From contig JAUSCZ010000007.1 of the NCBI GenBank assembly GCA_030674475.1, positions 669-64,668 of the forward strand: a stretch of DNA of 64,000 nt. The letters run 5' to 3'. Within the stretch, counting starts at the first letter, position 1; the number at the start of each line of letters is the position of its first letter. The notes under the pieces are model-generated. The model was not told the origin of the DNA, searched no databases, and saw only the letters and a program-made list of their open reading frames with translations. The position numbers and the translations under genes are program-made. This document shows, in pieces, positions 19,383 through 51,419 of the stretch. The DNA comes from Candidatus Omnitrophota bacterium. Its GTDB lineage: Bacteria; Omnitrophota; Gorgyraeia; Gygaellales; UBA12090.

Positions 19383-19448
19383 TCCGCCTACGCGCGCTTT
19401 GCACGCTACGGCGGGTCCGCCGTAGCGAACGAAGTGAGCGTAGGCGGA
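19383..19448. repeat. Small nested-hairpin insertion element (outer inverted repeat TCCGCCTACGC/GCGTAGGCGGA; inner CTACGGCGG/CCGCCGTAG; contains GCGAACGAAGTGAGCG)
   Basis: Absent from the corresponding position of both intact paralogs. The perfect nested inverted repeats are seen directly. Confidence 0.65.
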
Positions 19449-19633
19449 AAGGTGGGGTTGAATTAAAGTCGTTGGGTTAGTATTGTTTTTAAGCCTCACT
19501 GCATAATTATTTGCGGGTGAGGCTTTTTGTTAATTGAAAATAATTGAAAGTAAATAGCCTTGAATTTCTTCGAGAATCTGATATATTATATTTGTAAAAG
19601 ACGGATTTTGTAAGATTAAAGGAGACGAATAAT

Positions 19634-20268: not shown

Positions 20269-20530
20269 CTTAATTATGCGGCAATAAGTTAAAATATTTT
20301 ACCAAGAGACAGCATACAAAACTCGTACACGAGGGTAAATATGTCGCGGAAGTTGAGGTGGAGATTCTTGATACCGGAGATGGCTGGTCGCCGTATCTTT
20401 CTCTTGAAGATGCCCAAAAGATAGATGAGGTAAGAGAAGCTTTGCGAGAAGGCGCCCTTCAGCGAGCAACGAAGATTGCCCGTGTATTCAATCTTACCCC
20501 GGTAGCAGTATAATTAAAAATATTATTCTT

Positions 20531-20577
20531 AGGGACGGTTCTGTTTTGGATTAGAGGATCGTCCCGTTTTTATTTTC
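20531..20577 (+). terminator. Hairpin GGGACGGTTCTGTTTTGGATTAGAGGATCGTCCC + GTTTTTATTTT (TAGGGAC...GTCCC palindrome family), putative terminator
   Basis: Seen directly; a homologous copy lies at 21221..21256. Confidence 0.5.
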
Positions 20578-20582
20578 CTGGC

Positions 20583-20611
20583 TTGACAAGGAATGATGTA
20601 TAAGTTATACT
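20583..20611 (+). promoter_or_regulatory. Near-consensus sigma70-type promoter TTGACA-17-TATACT for the AbrB/RelE-like operon
   Basis: gcTTGACAaggaatgatgtataagtTATACT, ~55 nt upstream of the 20669 start. Confidence 0.6.
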
Positions 20612-20668
20612 TTGGATATAAGTAAGTAAGGAAGTAAGGAAATAAGAGAGTAAGGAGGATAAAACATA

Positions 20669-20932
20669 ATGACTATAGTGGATACCGCAAAGATTACCTC
20701 AAAAGGCCAGATTACTATTCCTAACCGGATTAGGAAGATTTTGCATCTTAGCGAAGGTTCATCTTTGGCTTTCGGAGTAGGCCGGGAAGGAGTTTTATTG
20801 ATGCCGTGCAAGGTTACGGCTGACTCGGTATATACCGAGCAGGAATGGGTTAAGATTGAGAAACTGGCCGCTGTCAAGGGTAAGGTTTATAAGAGTTCAA
20901 AGGCCGCCAAAAAACATATCCAAGGGCTATGA
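20669..20932 (+). CDS. AbrB/MazE/SpoVT-family antitoxin
   Basis: MTIVDTAKITSKGQITIPNRIRKILHLSEGSSLAF is a swapped-hairpin AbrB-type DNA-binding N-terminus. Confidence 0.7.
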   Translation: MTIVDTAKITSKGQITIPNRIRKILHLSEGSSLAFGVGREGVLLMPCKVTADSVYTEQEWVKIEKLAAVKGKVYKSSKAAKKHIQGL

Positions 20933-21207
20933 GGTTTGAATTTAAGCCTTCCTTTGACCGGTCAATTAAGGCCTTTCCGGAAAGAGAAAAGCAGGAGTTA
21001 AAGGATGCCGCTTGCCGATTGATAGATGCCTTATCCGGACAAGAGTTAATCCCTAAAGGTATGGGTTTGAAGAAGCTTAGAGGAAATTTCTGGGAGATGC
21101 GCAAAGGTTTAAAGACCAGGATACTTTTTAGGCGCGAGAAAGATTGGCTTGAGTTTATCCTGGCCGGAGATCACAACGATATCAAACGTTTCCTGAGAAG
21201 GGCTTGA
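20929..21207 (+). CDS. RelE/ParE-superfamily toxin (partner of the AbrB-type antitoxin)
   Basis: 92 aa, overlaps the antitoxin by 4 nt. Paralogous to 28777..29070. Confidence 0.6.
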   Translation: MRFEFKPSFDRSIKAFPEREKQELKDAACRLIDALSGQELIPKGMGLKKLRGNFWEMRKGLKTRILFRREKDWLEFILAGDHNDIKRFLRRA

Positions 21208-21283
21208 TTCAGATTTTAGGGACAGTTCTGTATTTAGTTTAGAGAGTCGCCCTATTTTAGTAGAGATGGATTTTAAGCTATTT

Positions 21284-21322
21284 ATGGCGGTCCGCACTAC
21301 CCGGGCCGCCATTTTTATTTTT
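21284..21322 (+). terminator. Rho-independent terminator ATGGCGGTCCGCactacCCGGGCCGCCAT + TTTTATTTTT (copy 2)
   Basis: Hairpin plus T-run immediately downstream of the RelE-like gene. Confidence 0.75.
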
Positions 21323-21374
21323 AACCCGCCCTATTCTTCGGCAATAGCCGTTTTGCGCTTATTTTTTCTCTTTT

Positions 21375-21475
21375 TTACCCCGCTTTTTCAGTTTCCCGAC
21401 GACAACCCCGCCCCAGGAAAGCGCTTTCTCAAAAACCCGGTTTGGCCCTTGAAACGGGTAAATCCTATGGTATAC
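21375..21475 (+). promoter_or_regulatory. Conserved ~70-bp block plus promoter TTGAAA-16-TGgTATACT (copy 2) driving paralog A
   Basis: -35 at 21448..21453 and extended -10 at 21467..21475. The block is >90% identical to copy 3. Confidence 0.6.
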
Positions 21476-21819
21476 TTTAGGCAAAAGATGGCCAACCCAA
21501 AAGATAACCCGGATAAAATCCCGGTAGCGCGCTGTGACAGTAATCAAGCCCTCTCCTTATTGGGAGAGGGTGGGGTGAGGGAATACATAAACCAATTAGT
21601 TCCCCCTCATCCTAACCTTCTCCCGCAGGGGGAGAAGGAAGTAATTGGCAATAACTGTCACAATCAGACTGTGTCGCAATCTCTTAAAATGACCATTTTG
21701 TCATTCTGAGGGAGCAGGGCGACCGAAGAATCTCGTCGTTAATTTAAAAGACGAGATCCTTCGCTAGCGCTCAGGATGACATTATGACACAGTCTGAATG
21801 CAAGAGAAAGGACTTTGTG

Positions 21820-24153
21820 ATGTTTAAAAAACTGATTTCTATTCTTTTGTCTTTTACTTTTATCACCACTCAGCCTGTATTCGCCCAAGGAGTGGCCCAG
21901 CTGAATATGGCCCAATACCTGGGTTCAATGCCGGCTGTTGCGGCAGACCGGTTCCGTCCTTTGCATATGCGCTATTTCTCCTATGATATAGAGAAAGATA
22001 ACTTCCAGCTACTCTTAGATAAAGGAGACAATAAGGATATAAAGGAAGTTGAACTTCAGGAAAAGACCAAGGTTCTGATGGAGTATTTCCAAATTGGCTT
22101 AGCCCTGCCTAATGATAAGTTCTGGGTAAACCTAAGGCCGGATGCCCAAGACCAGATCATTGATCCGGAATTAGAGCAGACTGATTTAGGCAAGATAATG
22201 TTAGAGGCAGACTTGCAGTTAAAGAAGGATACCGCCAGCTTTACCTCACCCCAGACCACAGAAGGCAGACAATACTGGGATAAGCTCTATAAGAAGGCCG
22301 GAGAATTATTCGGCACCGAAAACATCACTATCCCCACCATCACCCGTCCCTGGATAGTCCCGGGCGAGATAATCCTAAGGCAAGGAGAGGATTCAGCCTA
22401 TATCTTTAAGGCCAATATGAAGGTGATGTTAGAGCATGATTATTTGGTCAGTAGGGGCGGGTCGCGAACCGCCCCTACGTATCAACAATACGCCTTTTCC
22501 GACCCCCGGATGAAGGAGTTAAACGAATATTCCACCCAACTTATCAGAGAGCTGATTATCCCCAAGCTGACCAAAGAGGTAAACACCTCCAAAAGATACG
22601 CCGCTCTTCGGCAGGTATTCTTTTCTCTGGTAATGGCCAGATGGTTTAAGGACACTTTCACTGGAAAGCCCGGCCAATATGCCAGCCTGATCGACAGCCA
22701 CAACCTCAACAATCTCACCTCCAAAGAGGCCTGGAGCAAAACCTTCTACTTCAACGAATACAAGAAGTCCTTTGAACAAGGCGAATACAACCTTAAGGAG
22801 AATATCGGCACCCCTTATGGGCAAATAATCAGGAGCTATGTCAGCGGGGGCATCGTAGGCAGTAGTAGCGCAATGACTCAGCATACATACCATAATGGTA
22901 AAAATAATGATGGAAACCCAAAACATCTCGTTGCTGCTATTATTAAACGTGATAAGCGGTTCGGGAATAAAACTGGAAATCTTTATGTTACAATGCACAC
23001 AAATAATGAAATAGTTAAAATGGAAGTAAATAATTCAGGAATGGGCGAAGTAGAGATTATTCCAAAATCAAAAGATTTTAATACGGATAATAAAAAAGGC
23101 TCTTCGCCGATGGAGGCAGGGCAGAAAGATATGGATTCTTTTTCTCTTGAACAGATAGAAGAAATGCGAAAGCTTGAACAAAGATTGTGGGTTATAGTTA
23201 AGGACATTGAAAAGATACTTGATGAAGTGGAATTAAGTAAGCTCCAGAACAAGGGTGAAATTGAGATTACGAATGATGGCTTTAAAGGTATTCATAGAAT
23301 GTTAGCCTATTTAAAGACTCTTACCCGGGAGGGTACAAGAATAGAAATAAATAATGGAGCAATAGATGGAATCGCGGATATGTTTTCTATAATAGGCTTA
23401 GTAGATATTCTGCCGGAAGGATATGAGGTGCGATCAGGACCAAGATTATTAACATTAAGGGGTAGTATTTCTGAGTTAAAACAGCTTCAGGAAGATTGGG
23501 AAAAGTGGGAGGTTAACCCGGAGAATGTGGTAAAAAGAATCGTAGCTCAGATTGGCTCTGCGTCTGAGGAAGATATAAAACTTATTGTAAAAACTTTTCG
23601 GGAAGAGATTAACCGCAACCCTACCGTAGAAGAGGCGGGAGAAATCCTCGGTGATGCTTTTGTGAGTCCTAAAGGTGATGGCGTAAAGGAAATGGCAGGG
23701 GAAAAGATAGCGGAGCTGAAGCAAAAAGCTTCCTCGTCGGCAATGAAATCAAGCAAAATTCCCGAAAATACCGGCGGTATTGATTTCCGTGCCATGAACT
23801 ATATGGTTCAGCCGATGGGGAGTTTTAAGGATTTGCGGTTTGGCCTGCCTACGCTGACCAGCAGCGCGTTAGAGAGGATTGACTTGGATCAGGAGTTAGA
23901 CTCCCTGCGCAATATGGTCAAGGCCGGGCTCGTGCCTTCGGGAGAGAGGGTCAAGGAATACTTAGCCGCCTGCTTTCAGAAAGGTAAGATTGAAGAAAGG
24001 CAGGATGACCTCTTAGTTTGTCTGGCCGAGATCTACCGCCTGGCCGAGGAGGAGAATTTAGAAACCAGCCCGGAACTGCGGGAGTCCCTGGTGATTGTAG
24101 ACACCGGCAAATTCGTCCTCTTGCCTAACAACCAAAAGGTGGGGCTGAATTAA
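21820..24153 (+). CDS. Large secreted protein, paralog A (777 aa; signal peptide MFKKLISILLSFTFITTQPVFAQG; conserved N- and C-terminal domains, divergent centre)
   Basis: N-terminal ~360 aa and C-terminal ~130 aa are near-identical at nucleotide level to paralog B. No known domain recognised. RBS AAAGGA precedes the ATG at 21820, so the ORF-track start at 21784 is probably upstream of the real start. Confidence 0.7.
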   Translation: MFKKLISILLSFTFITTQPVFAQGVAQLNMAQYLGSMPAVAADRFRPLHMRYFSYDIEKDNFQLLLDKGDNKDIKEVELQEKTKVLMEYFQIGLALPNDKFWVNLRPDAQDQIIDPELEQTDLGKIMLEADLQLKKDTASFTSPQTTEGRQYWDKLYKKAGELFGTENITIPTITRPWIVPGEIILRQGEDSAYIFKANMKVMLEHDYLVSRGGSRTAPTYQQYAFSDPRMKELNEYSTQLIRELIIPKLTKEVNTSKRYAALRQVFFSLVMARWFKDTFTGKPGQYASLIDSHNLNNLTSKEAWSKTFYFNEYKKSFEQGEYNLKENIGTPYGQIIRSYVSGGIVGSSSAMTQHTYHNGKNNDGNPKHLVAAIIKRDKRFGNKTGNLYVTMHTNNEIVKMEVNNSGMGEVEIIPKSKDFNTDNKKGSSPMEAGQKDMDSFSLEQIEEMRKLEQRLWVIVKDIEKILDEVELSKLQNKGEIEITNDGFKGIHRMLAYLKTLTREGTRIEINNGAIDGIADMFSIIGLVDILPEGYEVRSGPRLLTLRGSISELKQLQEDWEKWEVNPENVVKRIVAQIGSASEEDIKLIVKTFREEINRNPTVEEAGEILGDAFVSPKGDGVKEMAGEKIAELKQKASSSAMKSSKIPENTGGIDFRAMNYMVQPMGSFKDLRFGLPTLTSSALERIDLDQELDSLRNMVKAGLVPSGERVKEYLAACFQKGKIEERQDDLLVCLAEIYRLAEEENLETSPELRESLVIVDTGKFVLLPNNQKVGLN

Positions 24154-24169
24154 GCGGAGAGAGAAAAAG

Positions 24170-24382
24170 TCAGGCAGGCTGCAGATTAACTAACTCTATG
24201 CTGGGTTGCTTGTGTTTTAAGAGGTATTTTTTGGCGTCGAGTATTTCAATTCCCACTACTGAGCCATCGGGAGCGTAATTTACGGCAATATCTTCGGTGA
24301 GCCTCTGAGTAGTAACCTGAAAACGGCCTTCTTTCAACCGTATATAGGCCGCGTCAACTTTTGGATCATAGATTATTTTCAT
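24170..24382 (-). CDS. DUF2283-family small protein (antitoxin-like partner of DUF4258)
   Basis: MKIIYDPKVDAAYIRLKEG...VGIEILDAKKYL is the typical DUF2283 pattern. Confidence 0.6.
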   Translation of the reverse strand: MKIIYDPKVDAAYIRLKEGRFQVTTQRLTEDIAVNYAPDGSVVGIEILDAKKYLLKHKQPSIELVNLQPA

Positions 24383-24450
24383 AGCTCTTTGGACGCGCCG
24401 CGTTCAAGCATTTGGAATAAGGCGTGGTCTGAGAAGATGATGGTTTTCAT
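24381..24450 (-). pseudogene. Truncated DUF4258-family gene remnant (MKTIIFSDHALFQMLERGASKEL*)
   Basis: Minus-strand 23-codon ORF with the canonical DUF4258 N-terminus, then a premature stop overlapping the DUF2283 start. Confidence 0.5.
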
Positions 24451-24707
24451 TGGTTTCTCCTGATAGTTTAATTATAGCAACAATTTAGGTTAAGGCAACC
24501 CAAAAATAAATATTATCACTCGTGTCCAAATTAGACCATGAATACCGACGACAAAGCAGTTTTAAGATTCCAAAACTGTCATGCCCGCGAAGGCGGGCAT
24601 CCAGACTCTTGAGTCAATTGCGGATTCCCGACAAAAGATTTTGGGAATGATACTGTAACAGCTAATTTGGACAGCAATGAAATATTATAATGAATTTTTT
24701 AGTTGTT

Positions 24708-24748
24708 GATGACGGTCTGGATTACTCGGGCCGCCATTTTTATTTTTG
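24708..24748 (+). terminator. Degenerate copy of the GGCGG..CGGGCCGCC terminator hairpin + TTTTTATTTTT
   Basis: gacggtctggattaCTCGGGCCGCCATTTTTATTTTT; the left arm is eroded. Confidence 0.4.
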
Positions 24749-24927
24749 AAGCTTTCCCGATTTTGTAGCAAGCCTTTTCTGTAACGCAGTATTCATCATC
24801 GGTTTAAGATAAAATTTTGCGCGCTGGGCTAAACTTTACAGGAAAGCTTCTGATTATGGCGATTAAATACAGATTCCAGAGATTTATTACCGACGTAAAA
24901 TCGCTGTAATCTTTTAAAAATCTCTGT

Positions 24928-24974
24928 AATCAAGTTCTTTCCCTTTTGCTGCAAACTTGGGAAAGAACTTGATT
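24928..24974. promoter_or_regulatory. Perfect 16-bp inverted repeat AATCAAGTTCTTTCCC-N15-GGGAAAGAACTTGATT (operator-like site) abutting a promoter
   Basis: Seen directly, 6 bp upstream of the -35 TTGATT. Preceded by tandem CTGTAATC motifs. Confidence 0.55.
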
Positions 24975-24980
24975 AAAAGA

Positions 24981-25009
24981 TTGATTAGCGTTACGGGTAT
25001 GCTATAATT
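24981..25009 (+). promoter_or_regulatory. Consensus-like promoter TTGATT-17-TATAAT for the PIN-domain gene
   Basis: TTGATTagcgttacgggtatgcTATAAT, ~10 nt upstream of the ATG at 25017. The leader is very short. Confidence 0.55.
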
Positions 25010-25016
25010 ATATTAT

Positions 25017-25484
25017 ATGCATAAACCCAAGTTATATTTGGATACAACTATACCCAGCTATGTGTTTAATAGCCATGTTCCCGATAAACAAACAGCTGCC
25101 CGGAAACTCTTTGAATACATTGATAAAGAGAAGGCGGAAGCCTATATCTCTACGGTTGTAGTCCGCGAGCTTAGTAAAACTGGAGAGGACTATCTGAAAG
25201 ATAGGTTGTTTGCTCTAATAAAAGATATGACGGTTCTAGAGGTTACTCAGGAGTGCGTAGAGCTTGCCGGTGAGTATATTCAAAGAGGAATCATACCTAA
25301 AGAAAATATAGATGATGCCTTGCATATTGCCTGCGCGAGCGTTTACGAGATTGATTTTCTAGTCAGCTATAATTTTGAACATATTGTTCGGATAAAAACT
25401 ATTGATAATGTGTCGGCAATAAACGTATTATTGGGATTTAAAACACCGCGTATCATCATTCCCGAGGAGGTAATTGATGTTTAA
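25017..25484 (+). CDS. PIN-domain protein (VapC-like putative RNase toxin)
   Basis: LYLDTTIPSY..., DALHIACASVYEIDFLVSYNFEHI: acidic residues positioned as in the PIN fold. 155 aa. Confidence 0.5.
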   Translation: MHKPKLYLDTTIPSYVFNSHVPDKQTAARKLFEYIDKEKAEAYISTVVVRELSKTGEDYLKDRLFALIKDMTVLEVTQECVELAGEYIQRGIIPKENIDDALHIACASVYEIDFLVSYNFEHIVRIKTIDNVSAINVLLGFKTPRIIIPEEVIDV

Positions 25485-25674
25485 GATGTCTGAACTTAAC
25501 CCGAAAGACAAGACCCTTGATGAAATTCACAATATCCAGAAAGAAATCTATGATGAAGACAAGGGGATAACTGTTAAAGATTTGTTAGAAAGATATAACT
25601 CAAGCGTCAGGAAAGTTGCTCAAGAATATAAGATTAATCTCAAAGTGGTTTCTTCCAAAGAAATCCATATCTAA
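25474..25674 (+). CDS. Small hypothetical protein overlapping the PIN gene (possible cognate partner)
   Basis: 66-aa ORF with an 11-nt overlap to the PIN gene; no recognised motif. Confidence 0.35.
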   Translation: MMFKMSELNPKDKTLDEIHNIQKEIYDEDKGITVKDLLERYNSSVRKVAQEYKINLKVVSSKEIHI

Positions 25675-25756
25675 AACTTCGATCTGCTTTAGCAGTGTAG
25701 TCTTATCCCGGTAGCAGTATAAATTCAATCATTAGCATACAGAAAAAGTATGGGAT

Positions 25757-25795
25757 GGCGGTCCGCACTACCCGGGCCGCCATTTTTATTTTTAA
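25757..25795 (+). terminator. Rho-independent terminator ATGGCGGTCCGCactacCCGGGCCGCCAT + TTTTATTTTT (copy 3)
   Basis: Identical to the 21284 copy. Confidence 0.75.
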
Positions 25796-25844
25796 CCCGC
25801 CCTATTCTTCGGCAATCGCCGTTTTTCGCTTATTTTTTCCTTTT

Positions 25845-25946
25845 TTTACCCCGCCTTTTCTGTCTTCCGACGACAATCCCTTCCCAGGAAAGCGCTTTCT
25901 CAAAAACCCGCCTTGGCCATTGAAACGGGTAAATTCTGTGGTATAC
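25845..25946 (+). promoter_or_regulatory. Conserved ~70-bp block plus promoter TTGAAA-16-TGgTATACT (copy 3) driving paralog B
   Basis: -35 at 25919..25924 and extended -10 at 25938..25946. Only a ~60-nt leader to the RBS GGGGGA. Confidence 0.6.
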
Positions 25947-26009
25947 TTTAGGCAAAAGATGGCCAACCCAAAAGATAAACCAAATAAAGTTCAAGTAGGG
26001 GGATATAAA

Positions 26010-28325
26010 ATGTTTAAAAAACTGATCTCTATTCTTTTGTCTTTTACTTTTATCACCACCCAGCCCGTATTCGCCCAAGGCGTAGCCCAGCTGAATATGG
26101 CCCAATACCTGGGTTCAATGCCGGCTGTTGCGGCAGACCGGTTCCGTCCTCTGCATATGCGCTATTTATCTTACGATGCGGCTACTGATAATTTCCAGCT
26201 TCTTTTAGATAAAGGGGATGATCAGGATATTAAGGTAGGGAACGGTCGCGACCGTTCCCTACAGGAAAAGACCAAGGTCCTGATGGAGTATTTCCAGATA
26301 GGATTAGCCCTGCCTAATGACAAGTTCTGGGTAAACCTAAGGCCGGATGCCGAAGACCAGATAATTGACCCGGAGTTAGAAAAGACCGATATGGGTAAGA
26401 TAATGCTGGAGTCAGACCTGCAGTTAAAGAAGGATACTGCCGGCTTCACCTCACCCCAGACCACAGAAGGCAGACAATACTGGGATAAGCTTTATAAGAA
26501 AGCCGGAGAACTCTTCGGCACCGAAAACATCACCATCCCCACCATCACCCGTCCCTGGATAGTCCCGGGTGAGATAATCCTAAGGCAAGGCGAAGACTCG
26601 GCCTATATCTTCAAGGCCAATATGAAGGTGATGCTGGAGCATGACTACTTAAGCTCTCAGCCTTCAGCTCTCAGCTCTCAGCAATATAATTTCAAAGACC
26701 CCCGGATGAAAGAGTTGAACGAATACTCCAGCCAACTGATTAGAGAGTTGATTATCCCTAAATTAACCAAAGAGGTAAACACCTCTAAAAGATACGCCGC
26801 CTTAAGACAGGTATTCTTTTCCTTAGTCATGGCCCGCTGGTTTAAGGATACTTTCAGCGGCAAACCTGGCCAATACTCCCAGTTGATTGACAGCCACAAC
26901 CTCAACAACCTCACCTCCAAGGAGGCCTGGTCCAAGACAACCTACTTCAACGAATACAAGAAGTCCTTTGAAAAAGGCGAATACAACCTTAAGGAAGACA
27001 TCTCCACCCCTACCGGCCAGGTGATCAGGAGTTATGTCAGCGGGGGGATTACTGGTTCAAGCAGCGCAATGGGTAAGAATATAACCCATAATAATGGAGA
27101 GCACCCTCTTGATGTTGTTAATATTTTTTATAAAATGCCGAAAGGACATAACTCCGGAAATCTTTTTCTTGTGAAATCCATAGGCGATAAAACAATAGTA
27201 GAAATAGTCTCCTCAAATTCTCCGGAACGCCCAGGCAAAGAAAATATTATAAAGAATGAAGCAAGGGCCGGCTCAGCGCTGATGGAGGCAAAGCCTGCGG
27301 AATTTTTCTCTTTTGAAGAAAGCGAGGAGTTAAGAAAGAATCTTGAACAGAATATGTGGGTAAGGGTGGAGGATATTAAAACAATACTTTCTAACGCCTT
27401 GAATAGCATAGATGTTAATAATGACGCTTTTCCGAATATTCGTAAAGATATTAATAGTATTTTAATGTATTTAAATATTTTTAACAATAGGGATGCAAGA
27501 ATAAAAGGAAAAGATATAGATGAGATTGTGGAAATTCTTTACAAAAAAGGCACCTCCAGCGAGAAGTCCTTGTTTGATATTCTTCCGAAAGGATATAAGG
27601 TATGGTCGGGAGGGCGATCTGTAACATTAAGTGGCAGTGTTTCAGAATTAAGACGGTTCCAGGAAGCTTGGGAAAAGCTAGAAATTGATGCGGAGGCTGT
27701 AGTAAAGAGAATCGTAGGGCAAACGGGTGCTGCGAGTGAGAAATATGTAAAATATATTGTGGAAAGATTCCGGGAAAAGATTGACCGTAACCCTACTATG
27801 CAAGAGACAGGAGAAATTATAGGCTACGTTATTCAGAATCATAAAGGAAATGAGAGCCTGCCGGAAATAGTAGATGAAAAGATAGCGGAGATTATGGCTT
27901 CTTCCTCGATGGAGACAATTTCTAAGTCTGTTCCTAAAAACGCCGGTGGTATTGATTTCCGGACTATGAACTATCTGGTCCAGCCGATGGGGAGTTTTAA
28001 GGATTTGCGGTTTGGCTTGCCTACTTTAACCAGCAGCGCGTTAGAGAGGATTGACCTGGATAAGGAATTAGACTCCCTGCGCGATATGGTCAAGGCCGGG
28101 ATGGTGCCTTCGGGGATGCGGGTCAAGGAATACCTGGCCGCCTGCTTCCAGAAAGGTAAGATTGAGGAAAAGCAGGATGACCTCTTAGTCTGTCTGGCCG
28201 AGATCTACCGCCTGGCTGAGGAGGAGAACTTAGAAACCAGCCCGGAACTGCGGGAGTCCCTGGTAATTGTAGACACCGGTAAATTCGTCCTCATGCCTAA
28301 CAACCAAAAGGTGGGGCTGAGTTAA
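26010..28325 (+). CDS. Large secreted protein, paralog B (771 aa; same signal peptide and conserved termini as paralog A)
   Basis: Nucleotide-level near-identity to paralog A over ~26010..27070 and ~27950..28325, with the centre ~40% aa identity. The ORF-track start at 25755 is a read-through of the upstream module. Confidence 0.7.
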   Translation: MFKKLISILLSFTFITTQPVFAQGVAQLNMAQYLGSMPAVAADRFRPLHMRYLSYDAATDNFQLLLDKGDDQDIKVGNGRDRSLQEKTKVLMEYFQIGLALPNDKFWVNLRPDAEDQIIDPELEKTDMGKIMLESDLQLKKDTAGFTSPQTTEGRQYWDKLYKKAGELFGTENITIPTITRPWIVPGEIILRQGEDSAYIFKANMKVMLEHDYLSSQPSALSSQQYNFKDPRMKELNEYSSQLIRELIIPKLTKEVNTSKRYAALRQVFFSLVMARWFKDTFSGKPGQYSQLIDSHNLNNLTSKEAWSKTTYFNEYKKSFEKGEYNLKEDISTPTGQVIRSYVSGGITGSSSAMGKNITHNNGEHPLDVVNIFYKMPKGHNSGNLFLVKSIGDKTIVEIVSSNSPERPGKENIIKNEARAGSALMEAKPAEFFSFEESEELRKNLEQNMWVRVEDIKTILSNALNSIDVNNDAFPNIRKDINSILMYLNIFNNRDARIKGKDIDEIVEILYKKGTSSEKSLFDILPKGYKVWSGGRSVTLSGSVSELRRFQEAWEKLEIDAEAVVKRIVGQTGAASEKYVKYIVERFREKIDRNPTMQETGEIIGYVIQNHKGNESLPEIVDEKIAEIMASSSMETISKSVPKNAGGIDFRTMNYLVQPMGSFKDLRFGLPTLTSSALERIDLDKELDSLRDMVKAGMVPSGMRVKEYLAACFQKGKIEEKQDDLLVCLAEIYRLAEEENLETSPELRESLVIVDTGKFVLMPNNQKVGLS

Positions 28326-28488
28326 GCGGATTTCTCGCTGAAAGTCATTCTTCAGGGTGGTTCTCTAAGAGAGAACCACCCTGTTTTTATTTGGTAATTG
28401 ACAAAGCTGTATTGTATGCTATACTTATATGTAGAAATGCAGTAATGCGGATAATTATTGTTAGATAACAAGGAGGATATTGTTATGA

Positions 28489-28787
28489 TTGGCATGAAGA
28501 ATATGGCTGTGGTTTCTGAAAGAGGCACGGTTACCATCCCTAATGCTGTAAGAAGGACCGCGCGCATCCGCCCCGGAGACTTGCTTGAGTTCAAGCCGCA
28601 GGGCGATAGCGTGATCTTAAGACATATGATAGTCAGAGGCGCCGGAGAAGGGGACTTTTTGAGCGATAATGAATGGATGGAATTTGATAAGCTGGTAAAT
28701 AAACAGTTAAAAGAAGGCGCGTATAAGAGCTATGGGGACATAAAACAGGCTAAATCGCATTCCCGCAGGCTGATGCGTGGCGCGTGA
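28489..28787 (+). CDS. AbrB/MazE-family antitoxin (second copy)
   Basis: MIGMKNMAVVSERGTVTIPNAVRRTARIRPGDLLEF parallels the 20669 gene. Confidence 0.65.
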
Positions 28788-29070
28788 AATAGCCGTGGTT
28801 ATAAATTATCTTAGTTCCTACGACCGCTCTTTTAAGAAGCTGGATGTCCCGGCCCAAAGAAAAACCGTATCGGCTATAAATAATTTTCTCTCTTTCTTAG
28901 GCAGCCGTCAGAAACCCGAAGGCTTGGGTCTGAAAAAGATTTATAAAAATTATTGGGAGATTCGGATAAATATTCGTAACCGGATAATCTTTCAGTTAGA
29001 AGGCGGGGTTATAAATATTTCCTTTGTCGGCGACCACAATGCCGTCAGGGTGTTTATAAGAAAACCTTAA
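28777..29070 (+). CDS. RelE/ParE-superfamily toxin (second copy, paralog of 20929..21207)
   Basis: Shares LKKL/IYKNYWEIR...ILF...GDHN motifs with the first copy. Confidence 0.6.
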   Translation: MAREIAVVINYLSSYDRSFKKLDVPAQRKTVSAINNFLSFLGSRQKPEGLGLKKIYKNYWEIRINIRNRIIFQLEGGVINISFVGDHNAVRVFIRKP

Positions 29071-29090
29071 ACCCGGAATTTGCAATAGTA

Positions 29091-29126
29091 ATGGTGGTTT
29101 GGATTACGCGGGCCGCCATTTTTATT
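29091..29126 (+). terminator. Terminator hairpin ATGGTGGTTTGGATTACGCGGGCCGCCAT + TTTTATT between convergent genes
   Basis: Fifth member of the GGCGG..CGGGCCGCC hairpin family. Sits where the RelE-like gene (+) and ppiD (-) converge. Confidence 0.55.
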
Positions 29127-30609
29127 GGTCGGCTGTTTCCGGGGAGGCGGTTGAGGAAGTGATGTATTGCTTGAGGTTGGCCTGGGTGATCAGTTCGCTC
29201 TGCAGGGTGTTAAAGATATTTTGTTTCTTTCTTTCCAGGAGATTATCGGAATAGGTTGCTTTATCCTGCTTGAATTTATCCTGGTCAATTCCGGTGAATT
29301 TATCCGGCTCAATAATAAAACTACTTTTGGCGTCTTCTAAAATCGGGCTTATTTCACCCGGCTTAAGATCAAAGGCGGAATTTAATATACTTTTGTCTAT
29401 ATCCATATCCGGAATTGTTTGATCGCGTTTAAAAGCGGGGGTGGTTTTTAACTCTACCCCTAAGAGCTCCGCGGCTTTTTTTAAGTTTATGGCAGGGTCA
29501 TTCTGGAGGTAGCCGTCAATTTTATTCTTATAATCTTCGGTTTTATTTTTTGCTTCTTCTTTAGCCTTGATTAATTTCAGCGCTTCTTCAGCTTTAGGCT
29601 TTGCCTCTGCTAATTCCGGGATATAGAAATCTTTCTTTTGGGTTACCCGCAGGATATAGACGCCTTGAGCGGTATGGATTACCGGGCTGATTTGCCCGGC
29701 TTTCAGGTTGAAGCAATATTTATAAAATTCCTCGGATTCAATATTTTCCACCGGCTCATCTACGGCAAAGAAGCCGCTTTGGCGATAGGTAATATCTCCG
29801 GAAGCAGAGCTTTTAAGATCATTTGATTTTTTGATTTTGGGATAGAGATTATTCATTTGTTCGGATATGCCTATTCTTTGGGCCTCTTTAGAGTCCGGGG
29901 GGTAGTTGATTCCTATATACTCAATTTTGACCGTGGGAGGGCGTTTAAATTGGTTTGAGTTTTTCTGGTAATAGTCTTTAAGTTCATCTTCGCTTATTTT
30001 TATATCAGAGAGAAAGTTTTTAGAGTTAGTTTGGATATAATGGACGTTTAAGGTCTCATTGTCTTTTTTGTAAGCCTCCAAGACCTCCGTGTCGGTCAGG
30101 GTAATATCTTTGGTGGCCTGGACATAGAGTTTGCGGATAATAAGGTTATTGCGGGTTTGTTCTTCAAATTCGCGGGGTTGGCTGCCCAGGAAATAACGGA
30201 TTATCCTGCCGTAGGCATCCTGATTGAATTTGCCGTCTTTAGAAAATAAAGGATTAGAGGCAATCTCATCAACTACCTCCTGGTTTGACGCGGTGATTTT
30301 TTGTTTTTTGGCCTGTTCCAGCAGGATGAGTTTTATCCAGGCCTGGTTATTCAGGTCAACAAATTGCAGGAGGACATTATAATTTTCTCCGAACCTGAAT
30401 TTGAGGTCATTCAGGCAGGAAAGCCGTATTTTTCTAAATTCCGGGTTAGAAACCCGGCGGCCAAAGACCACTCCGGCATAGTTGGATTCTTTAGAGTTTT
30501 GCTTTCCTGACCCGGCTCCCCAAAGCACAAAGGCGAAGACCATCACCCCGACCATTACAGAGAGGATTATTTTCTGGGCCCGCTTTTTTTGGCGCAATAT
30601 TTTTAACAT
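29122..30609 (-). CDS. ppiD: Membrane-anchored periplasmic peptidyl-prolyl isomerase/chaperone (PpiD/SurA-like, parvulin domain)
   Basis: N-terminal TM anchor (LSVMVGVMVFAFVLW), SurA-N-like region and a parvulin-like segment (GQISPVIHTAQGVYILRV). Confidence 0.6.
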   Translation of the reverse strand: MLKILRQKKRAQKIILSVMVGVMVFAFVLWGAGSGKQNSKESNYAGVVFGRRVSNPEFRKIRLSCLNDLKFRFGENYNVLLQFVDLNNQAWIKLILLEQAKKQKITASNQEVVDEIASNPLFSKDGKFNQDAYGRIIRYFLGSQPREFEEQTRNNLIIRKLYVQATKDITLTDTEVLEAYKKDNETLNVHYIQTNSKNFLSDIKISEDELKDYYQKNSNQFKRPPTVKIEYIGINYPPDSKEAQRIGISEQMNNLYPKIKKSNDLKSSASGDITYRQSGFFAVDEPVENIESEEFYKYCFNLKAGQISPVIHTAQGVYILRVTQKKDFYIPELAEAKPKAEEALKLIKAKEEAKNKTEDYKNKIDGYLQNDPAINLKKAAELLGVELKTTPAFKRDQTIPDMDIDKSILNSAFDLKPGEISPILEDAKSSFIIEPDKFTGIDQDKFKQDKATYSDNLLERKKQNIFNTLQSELITQANLKQYITSSTASPETADQ

Positions 30610-31832: not shown

Positions 31833-31934
31833 ATGCCTTGCGGTAAAAAAAGAAAAAGACAAAAAATACGCACGCATAAAAGAAAAAAGATGCGTCGTAA
31901 GCTCAGACATTTAAAGAAGAGAGCTTGGGGTTAA
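31833..31934 (+). CDS. 33-aa highly basic small protein, bS22/AURKAIP1-like ribosomal protein candidate
   Basis: MPCGKKRKRQKIRTHKRKKMRRKLRHLKKRAWG with RBS AGGAGCGAGG. The pattern resembles mycobacterial/Bacteroidetes bS22 (KKRRKRMxKKKHRKLL). Missed by the >=60-aa ORF track. Confidence 0.5.
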   Translation: MPCGKKRKRQKIRTHKRKKMRRKLRHLKKRAWG

Positions 31935-31946
31935 AAGAAGGTTGGT

Positions 31947-31989
31947 GCCGCGTTGTCAAACCGGTTCTTAACGGTTTGACAACGCGGCA
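31947..31989 (+). terminator. 17-bp perfect stem hairpin GCCGCGTTGTCAAACCG-gttcttaa-CGGTTTGACAACGCGGC (terminator-like, no T-run)
   Basis: Seen directly, 12 nt after the small ORF stop. Confidence 0.4.
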
Positions 31990-32093
31990 ATTTGCCACGG
32001 GGATACTATACAGCTTGCTTGAGGGATAACCGGGCTTTCTAAAAAGAAATAAACTTATAGAAAAGCCTGAGTAATAGTAATGTCGCAGCCTAA

Positions 32094-32269
32094 TATACTG
32101 TAACATTAATTTTAGATGTTACAGTATATTAGGGGGGCGTGGGGGAGACCGTCCCCCACGATTGGGGGGTGCTCAGCGAACATAGTGAGCGCCGAAGGGG
32201 GGCTTGCCCCCCTAGCGGAAGTGCGACGGAACATTCCTATAATTATTAAGAATTTATGTTACGGAGCAC
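32094..32269 (+). repeat. ~175-bp GC-rich structured repeat element, copy 1 (flanking inverted-repeat hairpin, core GGGGGAGACCGTCCCCC...GGGGGGCTTGCCCCCC, tail ...TTTATGTTACGGAGCACT)
   Basis: The core ~95 bp is ~97% identical to 50425..50520. The 3' tail supplies the in-frame ATG used by the TPR ORF. Confidence 0.7.
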
Positions 32270-33272
32270 TAGGGTGGTCAGGTTTTTAATCTGGTTTTTT
32301 GTAACAGCGTGCGTTCTATCCTTGTCAGGCCGTTTATGGAATAAGGCGCTTAATGTATCTGAAGGCGCCGTTGGATTCGGCGGCTTGAAAGAAAAATCCC
32401 AAACGCAGGCTCAAGCCCATTATATGATGGGCTTATTTTATGAAAACCAGAATAAATTTGATGAGGCAATTGCCGAGTATAAACAAACCCTGGCCTTAGA
32501 AAAAGATATCCCGGCGCCGCGGGTGCGCATCGCCGCGAATCTTATCCGCAAAAACGATTTTCCTAACGCGCTCATAGAACTTCAGGAGGCAAAAAAGCTT
32601 GACCCTGATAATATAGAAACCGGGCTGCTTTTAACCCTCCTGTATACCATCCAGAATTCTTCGGATAAGGCAGTCCAGGAATATGAGGATGTTTTGAAAA
32701 AGGCCTCAAGCGCTGACCCTAAGAATGTTGATATCCTTAAGACCTTGGCCGGCTTGTATTATCAGCAGAAGAAATTCCCGGAGGCGAGTAACCTTTATAA
32801 GCTCGTCCTGGATATTGATAAAAATGATTATGAATCGGTATTTTTGCTGGGGGCTCTTTTAGAGGAGAGCGGTAAAAGAGACGAGGCAGTAGAGAAATTT
32901 AAAGAGGTTTTAAAGCTCAAGCCGGATTACGCTAACGCCCTGAATTCTTTAGGCTATCTCTATGCTGAGGATGGCCGCCAGCTTAACGAGGCTGAGGAGT
33001 TAATCAAAAAAGCCATTTTGATTGAACCGGATAACGGGGCTTATATTGACAGCCTGGGTTGGGTTTATTTTAGAAGAAATGAGCTGGATAAGGCGATTGA
33101 GCATTTGGAGAAAGCCAGCCTTTTGCTTTTCGACCCGCTGATATACGAACATCTTGGGGATGCCTATTTTAAAAAGGGAGCTCAGGATAAAGCCCAGGCC
33201 TCCTGGCAAAAGTCTTTAGAGCTTAATCCCGCGCAAGATAAGCTAAAAGAAAAGTTAGAGAAACTAAAATAA
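32256..33272 (+). CDS. TPR-repeat protein with N-terminal signal/TM segment
   Basis: Multiple 34-aa TPR-like repeats (AxxYxxLG...). The start codon lies inside the repeat-element tail. Confidence 0.65.
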   Translation: MLRSTRVVRFLIWFFVTACVLSLSGRLWNKALNVSEGAVGFGGLKEKSQTQAQAHYMMGLFYENQNKFDEAIAEYKQTLALEKDIPAPRVRIAANLIRKNDFPNALIELQEAKKLDPDNIETGLLLTLLYTIQNSSDKAVQEYEDVLKKASSADPKNVDILKTLAGLYYQQKKFPEASNLYKLVLDIDKNDYESVFLLGALLEESGKRDEAVEKFKEVLKLKPDYANALNSLGYLYAEDGRQLNEAEELIKKAILIEPDNGAYIDSLGWVYFRRNELDKAIEHLEKASLLLFDPLIYEHLGDAYFKKGAQDKAQASWQKSLELNPAQDKLKEKLEKLK

Positions 33273-36672: not shown

Positions 36673-36701
36673 GTAGGGGCAGGTTCCGAACCTGCCCCTA
36701 C
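36673..36701. repeat. Palindrome GTAGGGGCAGGTTCCGAACCTGCCCCTAC, flanked by GTTTATGGTT.../...AACCATAAAC inverted repeats
   Basis: Seen directly downstream of spoVG. Confidence 0.7.
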
Positions 36702-50345: not shown

Positions 50346-50386
50346 TTTCTCGCCAAATTTAAAATAGGCTTTCCTTTCCTGTGCTA

Positions 50387-50561
50387 CTACATTGTGACAT
50401 TAGTTTATGTCACAATGTAGTAAGGGGGTGTGGGGGAGACCGTCCCCCACGATTGGGGGGTGCTCAGCGAACGAAGTGAGCGCCGAAGGGGGGCTTGCCC
50501 CCCTAGCGGAAGTGCGAAGTGACATTCATTCGATTATCAAGTATTTATGTCACGGAGCACT
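50387..50561 (+). repeat. ~175-bp GC-rich structured repeat element, copy 2 (flanking inverted repeat TACATTGTGACAT/ATGTCACAATGTA; same core as copy 1; tail ...TTTATGTCACGGAGCACT)
   Basis: Core nearly identical to 32135..32230. The tail again supplies an in-frame ATG (ORF-track start 50547) upstream of lpxI. Confidence 0.7.
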
Positions 50562-50605
50562 ATTGATGGGATAGCGCGGGGCAGGCAATCAAGGAAAGGC
50601 CAAAG

Positions 50606-51419
50606 CATGGAAAAAATAGGTCTTATTGCCGGAAGGGGCAATTTTCCGATTCTATTCTCTCAGGAAGCCGCTCATTTAGGTTATTCGGTTATCGCTATTG
50701 CCGTTAAGGGAAATACCCGAAGGTGCCTGAAAAAATACGCGGCTAAGCTCTTTTGGATTAAGGTTACTGAATTTAAGGATATAGCCGCTAAGTTTAAACA
50801 GGAAGGCGTATCCAAAGCGGCGATGGCCGGCCAGATTAATCCTTATTTTCTCTTTAATCCTAAGATTATGTCTAATCCCGATGTCCGGGATTTTTTCGGT
50901 AAAATAGAGGACCGGCGCGCGGATACCATTTTTAACGCCTTTACCAGGAGACTACAGGAAGCGGGATTAGAGCTTATCGCCTCAACCGCGTTTCTGGCTA
51001 AATATATGCCTAAGGAAGGGGTCTTGAGCAAAAGGAAACCAACAGAAACAGAGGGTAAGGATATCTCTTTCGGCTTTACAATAGCCAGGCACTTAGGGGT
51101 TAGGGATATCGGCCAGAGTGTCTGTGTTAAAAACGGAGTAATTTTAGCGGTTGAATCAATAGAGGGAACGGATAATACTATTCTCCGGGCAAAATCTTTA
51201 GCCCGGTCCTCGGTAGTTTTGGTTAAGACCGCCAAGCCCAATCAGGATATGCGTTTTGATGTCCCGGTGGTGGGCCTCAGGACAGTCAGGAATTTACCTC
51301 GCGGCAGTTGTTTGGCCTTTGAGGCGGAGAAGACTATTTTTCTGGATCAGAAGGAGGCCTTCGCCCTGGCCGATAAAAAAGATATAACAATAGTCGCGCG
51401 AAAGCTCCCGATAGCGTAG
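50606..51419 (+). CDS. lpxI: UDP-2,3-diacylglucosamine hydrolase LpxI (DUF1009)
   Basis: MEKIGLIAGRGNFPILF is the typical LpxI N-terminus. RBS AAGGAAAGG precedes the ATG at 50606. Confidence 0.7.

What the first reader, a model, noticed from the sequence alone, without database searches (positions are those of the whole stretch)
32094..32269. Two copies of a ~175-bp GC-rich, highly structured element that donate an in-frame ATG to the downstream gene
Elements at 32094..32269 (before the TPR gene) and 50387..50561 (before lpxI) share a ~95-bp GC-rich core, identical apart from a few positions. The core contains GGGGGAGACCGTCCCCC and GGGGGGCTTGCCCCCC hairpins and a GCGAACGAAGTGAGCG motif. It is flanked 5' by a perfect inverted-repeat hairpin. 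It is followed by a tail ending TATAATT/GATTAT...TTT-ATG-T(T/C)A-CGG-AGC-ACT, which reads in frame into the downstream ORFs (MLRST.../MSRST...). The GC-rich structured core in an AT-leaning genome and the near-identity of the copies suggest a recently mobile MITE-like element or a structured RNA. The tail may act as an outward promoter/start-codon donor (-10-like box 13-20 nt before the ATG). For the TPR protein, the donated ATG yields a plausible signal peptide N-region.
Basis: seen in the sequence. Interest (0 to 1): 0.6.

Follow-up and report, generated by a model that had tools for sequence, protein, structure and literature searches.

The report
Mobile mini-transposon carrying a structured RNA
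The two repeats are copies of a small non-autonomous transposon of the IS630 family that carries a conserved folded RNA core; one copy landed in the first codons of a gene and now supplies the signals needed to restart its translation.

Summary
Two + strand copies (32093-32269, 50387-50560) each consist of an AT-rich 5' hairpin, a 70% GC core (~95% identical between copies) and a 3' hairpin. Both are flanked by TA.

- **Identity.** It is an IS630-family MITE. Close relatives carry clean empty sites with a single TA. Across more than 50 copies the target is C|TA|G. A 1.2-kb IS630-family IS with matching terminal inverted repeats abuts one copy (L217).
- **Core.** It is a diverged relative of Rfam's orphan Clostridiales-2 RNA, scoring below gathering. 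Covariation is strong. It occurs in Omnitrophota, NC10, a Planctomycetia MAG and Clostridia. In Clostridia the same core sits in a differently ended insertion.
- **TPR gene.** Copy 1 inserted in codon 5 and cut off the original ATG. Translation must restart from element-linked signals: GGAG plus GTG 32274 (likelier) or ATG 32256. GGAG-ending copies lie just before start codons in 11/22 cases, against 4/66 for other copies.
- **Not supported.** The LpxI N-terminal extension and the outward promoter.
- **Unknown.** What the core RNA does.

The parts
32091..32092 (+). Left TA of the duplicated target, copy 1. The empty site in relatives reads GCAGCC-TA-GGGTGG.
   Evidence: alignment with L123, L125, L126, L127
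32093..32133 (+). Copy 1 left terminal inverted repeat folded back on itself (5' hairpin; the perfect 18-bp arms at 32089-32106/32116-32133 extend 4 nt into the flank).
32134..32225 (+). Copy 1 GC-rich core. P1 is 32139-32159. The invariant GGGGGGTGCTCAG is 32164-32176. The P2 variant is 32177-32191. P3 is 32197-32212. TAGCGGAAGTGCG is 32213-32225.
32226..32269 (+). Copy 1 right terminal inverted repeat and 3' hairpin. It holds ATG 32256-58 and the outward GGAG 32263-66.
32270..32271 (+). Right TA of the duplicated target, copy 1.
32080..32082 (+). Original ATG of the TPR gene (MSQPRVVRF... in relatives). It is now cut off and runs into a TAA inside the element.
32274..32276 (+). In-frame host GTG, 7 nt after the element's GGAG. 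It is the most likely new start of the TPR gene.
50385..50386 (+). Left TA, copy 2.
50387..50422 (+). Copy 2 left terminal inverted repeat and 5' hairpin.
50423..50516 (+). Copy 2 core. P1 is 50430-50450, GGGGGGTGCTCAG 50455-50467, P2 variant 50468-50482, P3 50488-50503.
50517..50560 (+). Copy 2 right terminal inverted repeat and 3' hairpin, with ATG 50547 and GGAG 50554-57.
50561..50562 (+). Right TA, copy 2.
50608..50610 (+). LpxI's own ATG, with AAGGAAAGG upstream. Its position is conserved in homologues.

Best explanation
Each copy is a miniature inverted-repeat transposable element (MITE) moved in trans by an IS630-family (Tc1/mariner-type DDE) transposase.

**How it moves.** The transposase recognises the ~25-bp terminal inverted repeats and cuts the element out. 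It then pastes the element into a TA, preferably within CTAG, and duplicates that TA.

**Anatomy.** Each end is the terminal repeat folded back on a partial inverted copy of itself, giving the 5' and 3' hairpins. Between them lies a ~95-nt GC-rich three-hairpin core that does not come from the IS. This core is a diverged relative of the Clostridiales-2 RNA motif. It is kept by selection on a single-strand fold, most likely as RNA. The RNA is probably made by read-through, because the window copies lie in the sense orientation inside transcription units and have no promoter or terminator of their own.

**Translation rescue.** The right end carries an outward-facing GGAG 3 nt from the tip. Copies that land on or just before a start codon can therefore still allow translation of the downstream gene.
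- Copy 1 inserted after codon 4 of the TPR gene. It replaced the gene's initiation region, and translation now most likely starts at GTG 32274 using the element's GGAG.
- Copy 2 inserted in the lpxA-lpxI spacer and is probably neutral.

**Shown:** the insertion, the TA duplication, the CTAG preference, the repeats shared with an IS630-family IS, covariation in the core, and the enrichment of GGAG ends next to start codons.

**Inferred:** trans-mobilisation, transcription of the element, use of GGAG/GTG, and any function of the core.
For: **Insertion and target**
- Empty site for copy 1. Relatives L123, L125 and L126 read ...AATGTCGCAGCC-TA-GGGTGGTCAGG, and L127 shows the same junction with substitutions. 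The window reads ...GCAGCC-TA-[177 nt]-TA-GGGTGG.
- The lpxA-lpxI spacer is 57 nt in L119 and 91 nt in L120, against 262 nt in the window. L120 has CTGTCTATTAGG at the matching point.
- Flank statistics over genome and metagenome copies, excluding tandem neighbours: the base before the left TA is C in 35/52, and the base after the right TA is G in 60/91. The next positions outward are unbiased.
- Published behaviour of IS630-family elements: they insert into TA and duplicate it. The CTAG preference of IS630 itself rests on the title of a reference cited there, Tenzen and Ohtsubo 1991 (PMC2170065).

**Partner IS**
- L217 204-1408 is flanked by TA. Its ends are GTGCGTTGTTAAATTAATTCTT and GTGCATTGTTAAATTAGTTGTT, which align with the MITE ends.
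- Its two ORFs match HTH_32 (7e-17) and DDE_3 (3e-24), and NCBIfam's IS630 family transposase model at 75.5 and 126.2 bits.

**Non-autonomous and dispersed**
- No neighbouring protein recurs across 86 loci.
- Many copies occur per MAG, often at contig ends.
- Tandem copies share one TA, and a core-less derivative exists.

**Core**
- Full-length hits to RF02937 at 42.5 and 44.8 bits, E about 1e-9. Firmicutes copies score 79-86 bits.
- 12 of 20 predicted pairs show compensatory changes.

**Shine-Dalgarno donation**
- 11/22 copies with a GGAG end have the start of an ORF of at least 80 aa within -1 to +10 nt of the element end. Only 4/66 other copies do (Fisher p = 1.7e-5).
- The TPR ORF is intact and 96% identical to the uninterrupted homologue P0121.
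Against: - No IS630-family transposase lies in this 64-kb window, and the L217 IS is not identical in its repeats to the window copies (about 70% over 25 nt). The actual partner in this genome was not seen.
- The L217 transposase is split into two ORFs, which could mean a frameshift or a pseudogene.
- The copy 2 empty site is less clean because the spacer has diverged.
- The 5' and 3' hairpins of each copy share a variable base pair (GTAACAT in copy 1, GTGACAT in copy 2). A simple repeat-only model does not require this.
- Deep conservation of an internal core is unusual for a MITE, and its role is unexplained.
- No expression data exist.
Confidence: 0.85

Rival explanations
1. It is an IS200/IS605-type palindrome-associated element (PATE). 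A Y1 HUH transposase would move it as single-stranded DNA, inserting it 3' of a short target (CTA) without duplication. The hairpins would be the transposase binding sites.
For: Both ends are subterminal hairpins with similar stems. In the first small sample the left flank was always CTA and the element ended in CTA. The base before the right TA covaries with an internal partner, AGUGC/GCACU versus ACUGC/GCAGU. There is an orientation bias toward flanking genes.
Against: With more than 50 copies the flanks are symmetric, C before the left TA and G after the right TA, which is a palindromic CTAG target. The ends are inverted repeats that match those of an IS630-family IS found next to a copy. 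No TnpA or TnpB gene recurs nearby.
Confidence: 0.04
2. It is a host-encoded regulatory RNA, either a cis-acting leader or riboswitch or a stand-alone sRNA gene, and not a mobile element.
For: The fold is very stable (z = -7.3 and -7.2). There is covariation and invariant unpaired stretches. It resembles an Rfam family typed as sRNA. Copies sit upstream of genes in the sense orientation.
Against: Presence/absence differs between near-identical loci, with a TA duplication. Downstream genes are unrelated. The window copies have no predicted promoter or terminator. One copy lies inside a coding sequence.
Confidence: 0.03
3. One reading: the element donates its own ATG (32256, 50547) as the start codon and carries an outward promoter in its tail.
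For: Both ATGs are in frame. MLRST-RVVRF keeps a basic N-region like the original MSQP-RVVRF. MITE-derived signal-peptide parts are documented in other bacteria (PMC2229807).
Against: There is no Shine-Dalgarno sequence before either ATG, and each ATG sits in the 3' strand of the terminal hairpin. GTG 32274 has GGAG at a 7-nt spacing. LpxI homologues start at the internal Met, which has its own Shine-Dalgarno sequence. No promoter-like site is found, and the -10-like box is not conserved between the copies.
Confidence: 0.15
4. Origin variant, compatible with the best explanation. The element is a composite: two palindromic mini-MITEs (repeat plus inverted repeat, each TA-bounded) flank a captured structured-RNA gene, and the outer ends move the whole unit.
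For: The 5' hairpin is itself TA-bounded, TA-[palindrome]-TA, in both window copies and in L217. A stand-alone mini hairpin of the same kind lies at window 57674-57716. A core-less fusion of the two hairpins exists in L067. The IS has no core. The same core occurs with quite different ends in Clostridia.
Against: The 3' hairpin is not TA-bounded on its inner side (GGAA|GTGCG). No intermediate was seen, such as a core with only one hairpin at an otherwise empty site. Internal deletion could produce the core-less forms.
Confidence: 0.35

Closest known systems
RUP (repeat unit of pneumococcus), the MITE attributed to IS630-Spn1
   Same: A small (~107 bp) non-autonomous element. Its terminal inverted repeats resemble those of an IS630-family IS, it inserts at TA, and it has many copies (PMC2229807).
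   Different: RUP has no reported phylum-spanning structured core and no outward Shine-Dalgarno sequence. The present element is 174-177 nt, each end forms its own hairpin, and it occurs in Omnitrophota, NC10 and a Planctomycetia MAG.
IS630 / ISY100 (IS630-Tc1-mariner superfamily)
   Same: TA target with a 2-bp duplication, a CTAG preference for IS630 itself, terminal inverted repeats, and an HTH plus DDE transposase (PMC2170065; L217).
   Different: The window element encodes no transposase, and its interior is unrelated to the IS.
Clostridiales-2 RNA motif (Rfam RF02937, typed as sRNA, function unknown)
   Same: Same order of elements and the same invariant stretches: GGGGG.UG, then P1, then GGGUGCUCAG, then P2, then CG.CGAAGGG. 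The model is matched from position 1 to 82.
   Different: The window copies score 42.5 and 44.8 bits, below the gathering score of 58.6. Their P2 has two non-standard pairs. The host is Omnitrophota, not Clostridia. The ends are IS630-type repeats with TA, whereas Clostridial copies have a TAGGAAA palindrome and a terminator, are bounded by T-tract+AT or CTTG, and sit right after host terminators.
Correia/NEMIS elements of Neisseria and CIR repeats of Caulobacter/Brucella
   Same: TA at the termini. They are co-transcribed with neighbouring genes, and RNA-level structures affect adjacent mRNAs. CIR forms two independent stem-loop arms joined by a conserved linker (PMC2229807).
   Different: There is no sequence relation, and the cores and hosts differ. 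Correia acts through promoters, IHF sites and RNase III sites. None of these was found or tested here.
YPAL/ERIC/RPE-type MITE-ORF fusions
   Same: A MITE inserted into a coding region contributes to the N-terminus or signal peptide of a protein (PMC2229807).
   Different: Here the element does not add a long in-frame peptide. It replaces the initiation region and mainly contributes a Shine-Dalgarno sequence.
bcr repeats of the Bacillus cereus group
   Same: Comparable only to the Clostridial relatives. They are 100-400 bp repeats whose mobility is linked to TTTAT motifs (PMC6542083).
   Different: No sequence comparison was possible because the bcr1 paper was not held. They are not relevant to the TA/CTAG window copies.

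Membership tests
IS630-family MITE | Terminal inverted repeats resembling those of an IS630-family insertion sequence | tested here: met
   The ends of the L217 IS and the ends of the L217, window and L005 MITEs align as TAGTGC..GTTAAATTAATT.TTAAT. The window ends are about 70% identical to the IS ends over 25 nt.
IS630-family MITE | Insertion at TA with a 2-bp TA target-site duplication | tested here: met
   The empty site GCAGCC-TA-GGGTGG in L123, L125 and L126 becomes TA-element-TA in the window. The right end is followed by TA in 70/76 copies.
IS630-family MITE | Palindromic target preference (CTAG for IS630) | tested here: met
   C precedes the left TA in 35/52 copies and G follows the right TA in 60/91. 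Neighbouring positions are unbiased.
IS630-family MITE | No transposase gene; small size; many dispersed copies | tested here: met
   The elements are 174-177 nt. No neighbouring protein recurs.
IS630-family MITE | Mobilised in trans by the cognate transposase | not testable with these tools
   Needs a binding or transposition assay. No transposase gene lies in the window.
Rfam RF02937 Clostridiales-2 RNA | Bit score at or above the curated gathering score (58.6) | tested here: not met
   42.5 bits (32125-32202) and 44.8 bits (50415-50493). Not reported at the gathering threshold.
Rfam RF02937 Clostridiales-2 RNA | Full-length match with the invariant unpaired stretches and the P1 hairpin | tested here: met
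   Model positions 1-82 are matched. GGGUGCUCAG and CG.CGAAGGG are identical to the consensus. These columns are invariant in 52 sequences.
Rfam RF02937 Clostridiales-2 RNA | Second hairpin (P2) of standard pairs | tested here: inconclusive
   The window copies have two non-standard pairs in P2 (marked). An alternative GUGCUCA/UGAGCGC pairing is possible. Other Omnitrophota copies (L005, L026, L078) keep a regular P2.
IS200/IS605 PATE | Asymmetric target on the left flank only, no duplication, and a Y1 transposase partner | tested here: not met
   The CTAG flanks are symmetric. The partner found is a DDE IS630-family IS.
Riboswitch or cis-regulatory leader | Consistent association with one gene family or pathway | tested here: not met
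   Neighbouring ORFs of 86 loci form no recurrent cluster. The element is absent from orthologous loci.

The most novel reading that the evidence does not exclude
The ~95-nt core is a functional RNA in its own right: a protein-binding, processing or catalytic module with invariant unpaired nucleotides. It travels as cargo on at least two unrelated kinds of small mobile element. One kind is the IS630-type TA/CTAG MITE of Omnitrophota, NC10 and a Planctomycetia MAG. The other is the terminator-hugging, T-tract+AT-bounded element of Clostridia. It would persist across phyla because it makes insertions tolerable or advantageous, for example by insulating or processing the host transcript before the element's own Shine-Dalgarno sequence. 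That would turn the orphan Clostridiales-2 'sRNA' into a mobile RNA gene.
Probability: 0.3. Interest if true: 0.8.

Novelty: new variant of a known kind. Interest (0 to 1): 0.55.

Why it matters
Three points make this more than one more MITE.

1. **It links an orphan Rfam motif to mobile DNA.** Clostridiales-2 is typed as an sRNA of unknown function. Here its relatives are shown to be insertions, and the family extends to at least three further lineages (Omnitrophota, NC10/Methylomirabilota and a Planctomycetia MAG).
2. **One folded core sits inside two different mobile shells.** The core shows covariation and invariant unpaired stretches. This argues that selection acts on the RNA and not only on the transposon ends, and it gives a concrete handle for asking what the RNA does.
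3. **It is a clear natural case of translation rescue.** A transposon landed in the first codons of a gene and the ORF downstream remains intact, apparently because the element's tip carries a Shine-Dalgarno sequence. This bears on how MITEs can spread inside compact operons, and on start-codon annotation in uncultured phyla.

Tried and rejected
- **Rfam at gathering threshold over the window:** only a tRNA.
- **Clustering of neighbouring ORFs across 86 loci:** no recurrent transposase, TnpB or other partner.
- **Viral contigs:** the three hits are chance matches inside coding DNA. **Phage and plasmid collections:** no match.
- **IS200/IS605-like model:** taken seriously because the first 11 copies all had C before the left TA while the right flank looked variable. 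The larger metagenome set showed symmetric C...G, so the asymmetry was a small-sample artefact.
- **Bridge-RNA (IS110), retron, omega-RNA and integron attC readings:** considered from memory and dropped. No recombinase or RT gene recurs nearby, and the ends match an IS630-family IS.
- **Other sites with the CGAACGAAGTGAG motif:** 55970 lies in a coding region and 39619 in the rplY leader. These are chance or unrelated and are not copies.
- **Promoter and terminator scans of both window copies:** nothing inside the elements. Scans of three Clostridial copies found terminators but no consistent promoter.
- **Rfam on the P3 expansion of L060:** nothing beyond Clostridiales-2.
- **Literature:** the supplement of the paper expected to describe Clostridiales-2 (from memory; its main text does not mention the motif) and the bcr1 paper were not held. 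No paper combines MITEs with Omnitrophota.
- **First automatic detection of left ends:** it had register errors and was redone.

Full report
**1. Observation**

Reading both regions and aligning them confirms two + strand copies of one element. A 29-nt probe from the core occurs only at 32141 and 50432, with no chance matches expected.

Each copy has three parts:
- A perfect AT-rich hairpin, with 18-bp arms at 32089-32106/32116-32133 and 16-bp arms at 50385-50400/50407-50422.
- A GC-rich core of about 92-94 nt.
- A second hairpin ending in ...CGGAGCAC.

The core is about 95% identical between the copies, while the 5' hairpin is 66% identical and the 3' hairpin 77%. The core is 70% GC in a 44.7% GC window. 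Both copies fold far better than shuffled controls (z = -7.3 and -7.2).

The tail ATGs at 32256 and 50547 are in frame with the downstream ORFs. A covariance model built later finds only these two copies in the 64 kb. Both copies were in its training alignment, so the informative result is that nothing else scores above 9.5 bits.

**2. It is an insertion, and the target TA is duplicated**

*Copy 1.* The closest TPR homologue (P0121, 96% identity, 339 aa) begins MSQPRVVRFLIWFF, whereas the window ORF begins MLRSTRVVRFLIWFF.
- Contigs carrying P0121 (L123, L125, L126) and a more distant one (L127) read ...AATGTCGCAGCC-TA-GGGTGGTCAGG...
- The window reads ...AATGTCGCAGCC-TA-[ATATACTG...CGGAGCAC]-TA-GGGTGGTCAGG....

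This is a precise 177-nt insertion (32093-32269) with a duplicated TA, placed after the fourth codon of the gene.

*Copy 2.* The lpxA-lpxI spacer is 57 nt in L119 and 91 nt in L120, in relatives whose LpxI is 90% and 84% identical. It is 262 nt in the window. After removing the element and one TA, the window reads CTGTGCTATTGATGG, which lines up with CTGTCTATTAGG in L120. This site is consistent with the same rule but less clean.

L119 and L126 come from one sample (ERZ27254744) and both lack the element. The two insertions therefore look specific to the window's lineage. Names attached to homologues place the window in Omnitrophota.

**3. The family**

- Real copies occur in many Clostridia/Bacillota MAGs and isolates, often several per genome and often at contig ends.
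- They also occur in Omnitrophota, in NC10/Methylomirabilota and in a Planctomycetia MAG.
- Hits in Actinobacteria are chance matches in coding DNA.

No neighbouring protein family recurs. Tandem copies share a single TA (L057, L067). L067 also holds a core-less derivative in which the 5' hairpin is fused to the 3' hairpin, still between TAs.

**4. Which transposition system**

The left end (left arm plus loop of the 5' hairpin) is the reverse complement of the right end. These are terminal inverted repeats of about 25 bp.

I first suspected an IS200/IS605-like mechanism. Both ends are hairpins, and in the first sample the left flank was always CTA. With the larger set the flanks are symmetric:
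- C precedes the left TA in 35 of 52 copies.
- G follows the right TA in 60 of 91 copies.
- The next positions outward show no bias.

This is a palindromic C|TA|G target with TA duplicated. IS630-family elements insert into TA and duplicate it (PMC2170065). The CTAG preference of IS630 itself is known to me only from the title of a reference cited in that paper.

The partner turned up in locus L217. A MITE copy (17-202) is followed, across a shared TA, by a 1.2-kb element (204-1408) bounded by GTGCGTTGTTAAATTAATTCTT and the inverted GTGCATTGTTAAATTAGTTGTT.
- These ends align with the MITE ends.
- Its two ORFs match HTH_32, HTH_23 and DDE_3.
- They also match NCBIfam's IS630 family transposase model at 75.5 and 126.2 bits.
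- The IS has no room for the GC-rich core, so the MITE is not a simple internal deletion of it.

**5. The core**

Against Rfam, both window cores give full-length matches to Clostridiales-2 RNA (RF02937). They score 42.5 and 44.8 bits, below the gathering score of 58.6, with E about 1e-9 on the short search. Clostridial copies score 70-86 bits. Omnitrophota and NC10 copies are not reported at the gathering threshold. The window element is therefore a diverged relative and not a member by Rfam's own criterion.

In an alignment of 52 distinct copies the stretches GGGTGCTCAG, CG.CGAAGGG and TAGCG.A are invariant. RNAalifold finds 20 pairs, 12 of them with compensatory changes:
- P2 pairs switch among GC, CG, AU and UA.
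- Inner P3 pairs switch.
- The pair linking CG[Y]CG to UAGCG[R]A is UA in 27 copies and CG in 25, with no exception.

This is strong evidence for selection on a single-strand fold. The window copies carry a P2 variant (CGAAC..AGUGAGCG) with two non-standard pairs, or alternatively a GUGCUCA/UGAGCGC pairing. The same variant occurs in other Omnitrophota copies and in one Clostridial genome.

**6. The same core in another shell**

Clostridial copies have no TA/CTAG flanks and no IS630-type ends.
- They begin with a TAGGAAA...TTTCCTA palindrome and end with a hairpin plus T-tract, which scores as an intrinsic terminator.
- They sit immediately after a host terminator.
- Of 48 copies, 32 have T3+AT within the 90-nt upstream window and 26 within 80 nt after the core. 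Another subfamily is bounded by CTTG.

For L038, an Rfam-passing copy downstream of rnfB, the relative L251 (RnfB 92% identical) has ...GGGGCAGCC-TTTTTAAT-TCCCATG. L038 has ...GGGGCAGCC-TTTTTTAT-[element...GCCAC-TTTTTTTAT]-TCCCATG. The Clostridiales-2 'sRNA' is therefore also an insertion. I could not settle its mechanism. A TTTAT link is reported for the bcr repeats of Bacillus cereus (PMC6542083), but I could not compare the sequences.

**7. Consequences in the window**

*Copy 1.* It cut the TPR ORF from its ATG at 32080, which now runs into a TAA inside the element. The rest of the ORF is intact. Two in-frame restarts exist:
- The element's ATG at 32256 has no Shine-Dalgarno sequence and lies in the 3' strand of the terminal hairpin.
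- The host GTG at 32274 lies 7 nt after the element's GGAG (32263-66).

I favour the GTG.

The GGAG is a general feature. The MITE's right repeat reads GTGC-TCC-GTTAAC where the IS and the left repeat read GTGC-ATT/ACT-GTTAAA, and this difference creates GGAG on the outward strand. Among 22 distinct copies ending with GGAG, 11 have the start of an ORF of at least 80 aa within -1 to +10 nt of the element end. Only 4 of 66 copies without GGAG do (Fisher p = 1.7e-5). In several cases the A of the right TA is the A of the ATG (L043, L246).

*Copy 2.* It lies 45 nt upstream of lpxI's own Shine-Dalgarno sequence and ATG. The listed LpxI homologues are mostly 263-292 aa (the closest 267-270) and align from about the internal Met, and DNA similarity upstream ends just before ATG 50608. 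The 20-residue extension from ATG 50547 is therefore not supported.

Neither copy contains a sigma-70-like promoter or an intrinsic terminator.

**8. Comparison and verdict**

The nearest known things are listed here.
- RUP, attributed to IS630-Spn1, and other TA-ended bacterial MITEs. Their transcripts fold, and they can fuse to ORFs and contribute signal-peptide parts (PMC2229807).
- IS630 and ISY100 for the mechanism (PMC2170065).
- The Clostridiales-2 motif for the core.

What is new is the combination: an IS630-type MITE whose interior is a covarying RNA fold conserved across phyla, shared with a differently ended insertion in Clostridia, and whose tip carries a functional-looking Shine-Dalgarno sequence.

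The function of the core is not known. My working view is an RNA-level role that makes insertions inside transcription units tolerable. This is inference only.

Noticed in passing
window 57674-57716: TA-GCGCGCTGTCAAACTAAT-AAAAAC-TAATTTGACAAAG-TA. This is a ~39-nt imperfect palindrome bounded by TA whose arms resemble the element's terminal repeats. It looks like a core-less repeat-to-repeat mini element or a footprint, and lies upstream of an rsfS-like gene.
   Followed up: partly
window 19383-19448: A 32-nt inverted repeat (84% complementary) whose right arm contains GCGAACGAAGTGAGCG. The same 16-mer forms the P2 variant of copy 2. It sits just after a gene end, and its relation to the element is unknown.
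   Followed up: no
window 4179-4207, 22450-22478, 26234-26262, 36673-36701: REP-like perfect palindromes starting with GTAG (GTAGGGGCGGTTCG|CGAACCGCCCCTAC and variants). A similar unit interrupts a Clostridial copy of the element in L086.
   Followed up: no
window 18158-29134 (D1-D8): Three to five paralogous gene units are repeated at spacings of ~3.0-4.8 kb (82-93% identical stretches). Each is preceded by a 58-nt repeat with a GGCGGTCCGC...GGGCCGCC hairpin and a T-tract.
   Followed up: no
window 31833-31934: A tiny Lys/Arg-rich ORF (MPCGKKRKRQKIRTHKRKKMRRKLRHLKKRAWG) is nearly invariant at the DNA level in all relatives aligned. In the window it is followed by an 18-bp perfect hairpin (31946-31989) that differs from the hairpin in the relatives.
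   Followed up: partly
L217 204-1408: A 1.2-kb IS630-family IS is flanked by TA and abuts a MITE copy. Its transposase is split into 149-aa (HTH) and 207-aa (DDE_3) ORFs, which suggests a programmed frameshift or decay.
   Followed up: yes
L067 4727-4826 (- strand); L057 ~650-678: In L067 a core-less derivative (5' hairpin fused to 3' hairpin) sits in tandem with a full copy and shares its TA. In L057 a truncated 3'-end remnant lies directly upstream of a full copy.
   Followed up: partly
L017 ~3240-3325, L019, L060 ~2660-2750, L071: In some Clostridial copies the P3 loop carries a 40-230-nt expansion. In L017, L019 and L060 it has its own conserved sequence (CCTTTTTGCCCCAAGC...AAAACGGACAGCAG.GAGCG.AGCGAGTCGGAGG); L071 carries a different ~40-nt insert. 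There is no Rfam match.
   Followed up: partly
L038 3186-3336 versus L251 ~2390: A bona fide Clostridiales-2 copy is an insertion placed right after the rnfB terminator. It is bounded by T-tract+AT on both sides and ends in its own predicted terminator. Another Clostridial subfamily is bounded by CTTG on both sides (L001, L072, L115, L116).
   Followed up: partly
L008, L009, L016, L024, L063, L098, L106, L111 and others: Many Dethiobacter and other Clostridia copies lie at the very ends of contigs. This suggests the repeat breaks short-read assemblies, so copy numbers in MAGs are underestimated.
   Followed up: no
L148, L167, L219, L220, L226, L229: A further NC10-like subfamily has ends ...GGCAC followed by TG or TT, and left flanks without TA. 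These are either decayed copies or a lineage that follows a different target rule.
   Followed up: no
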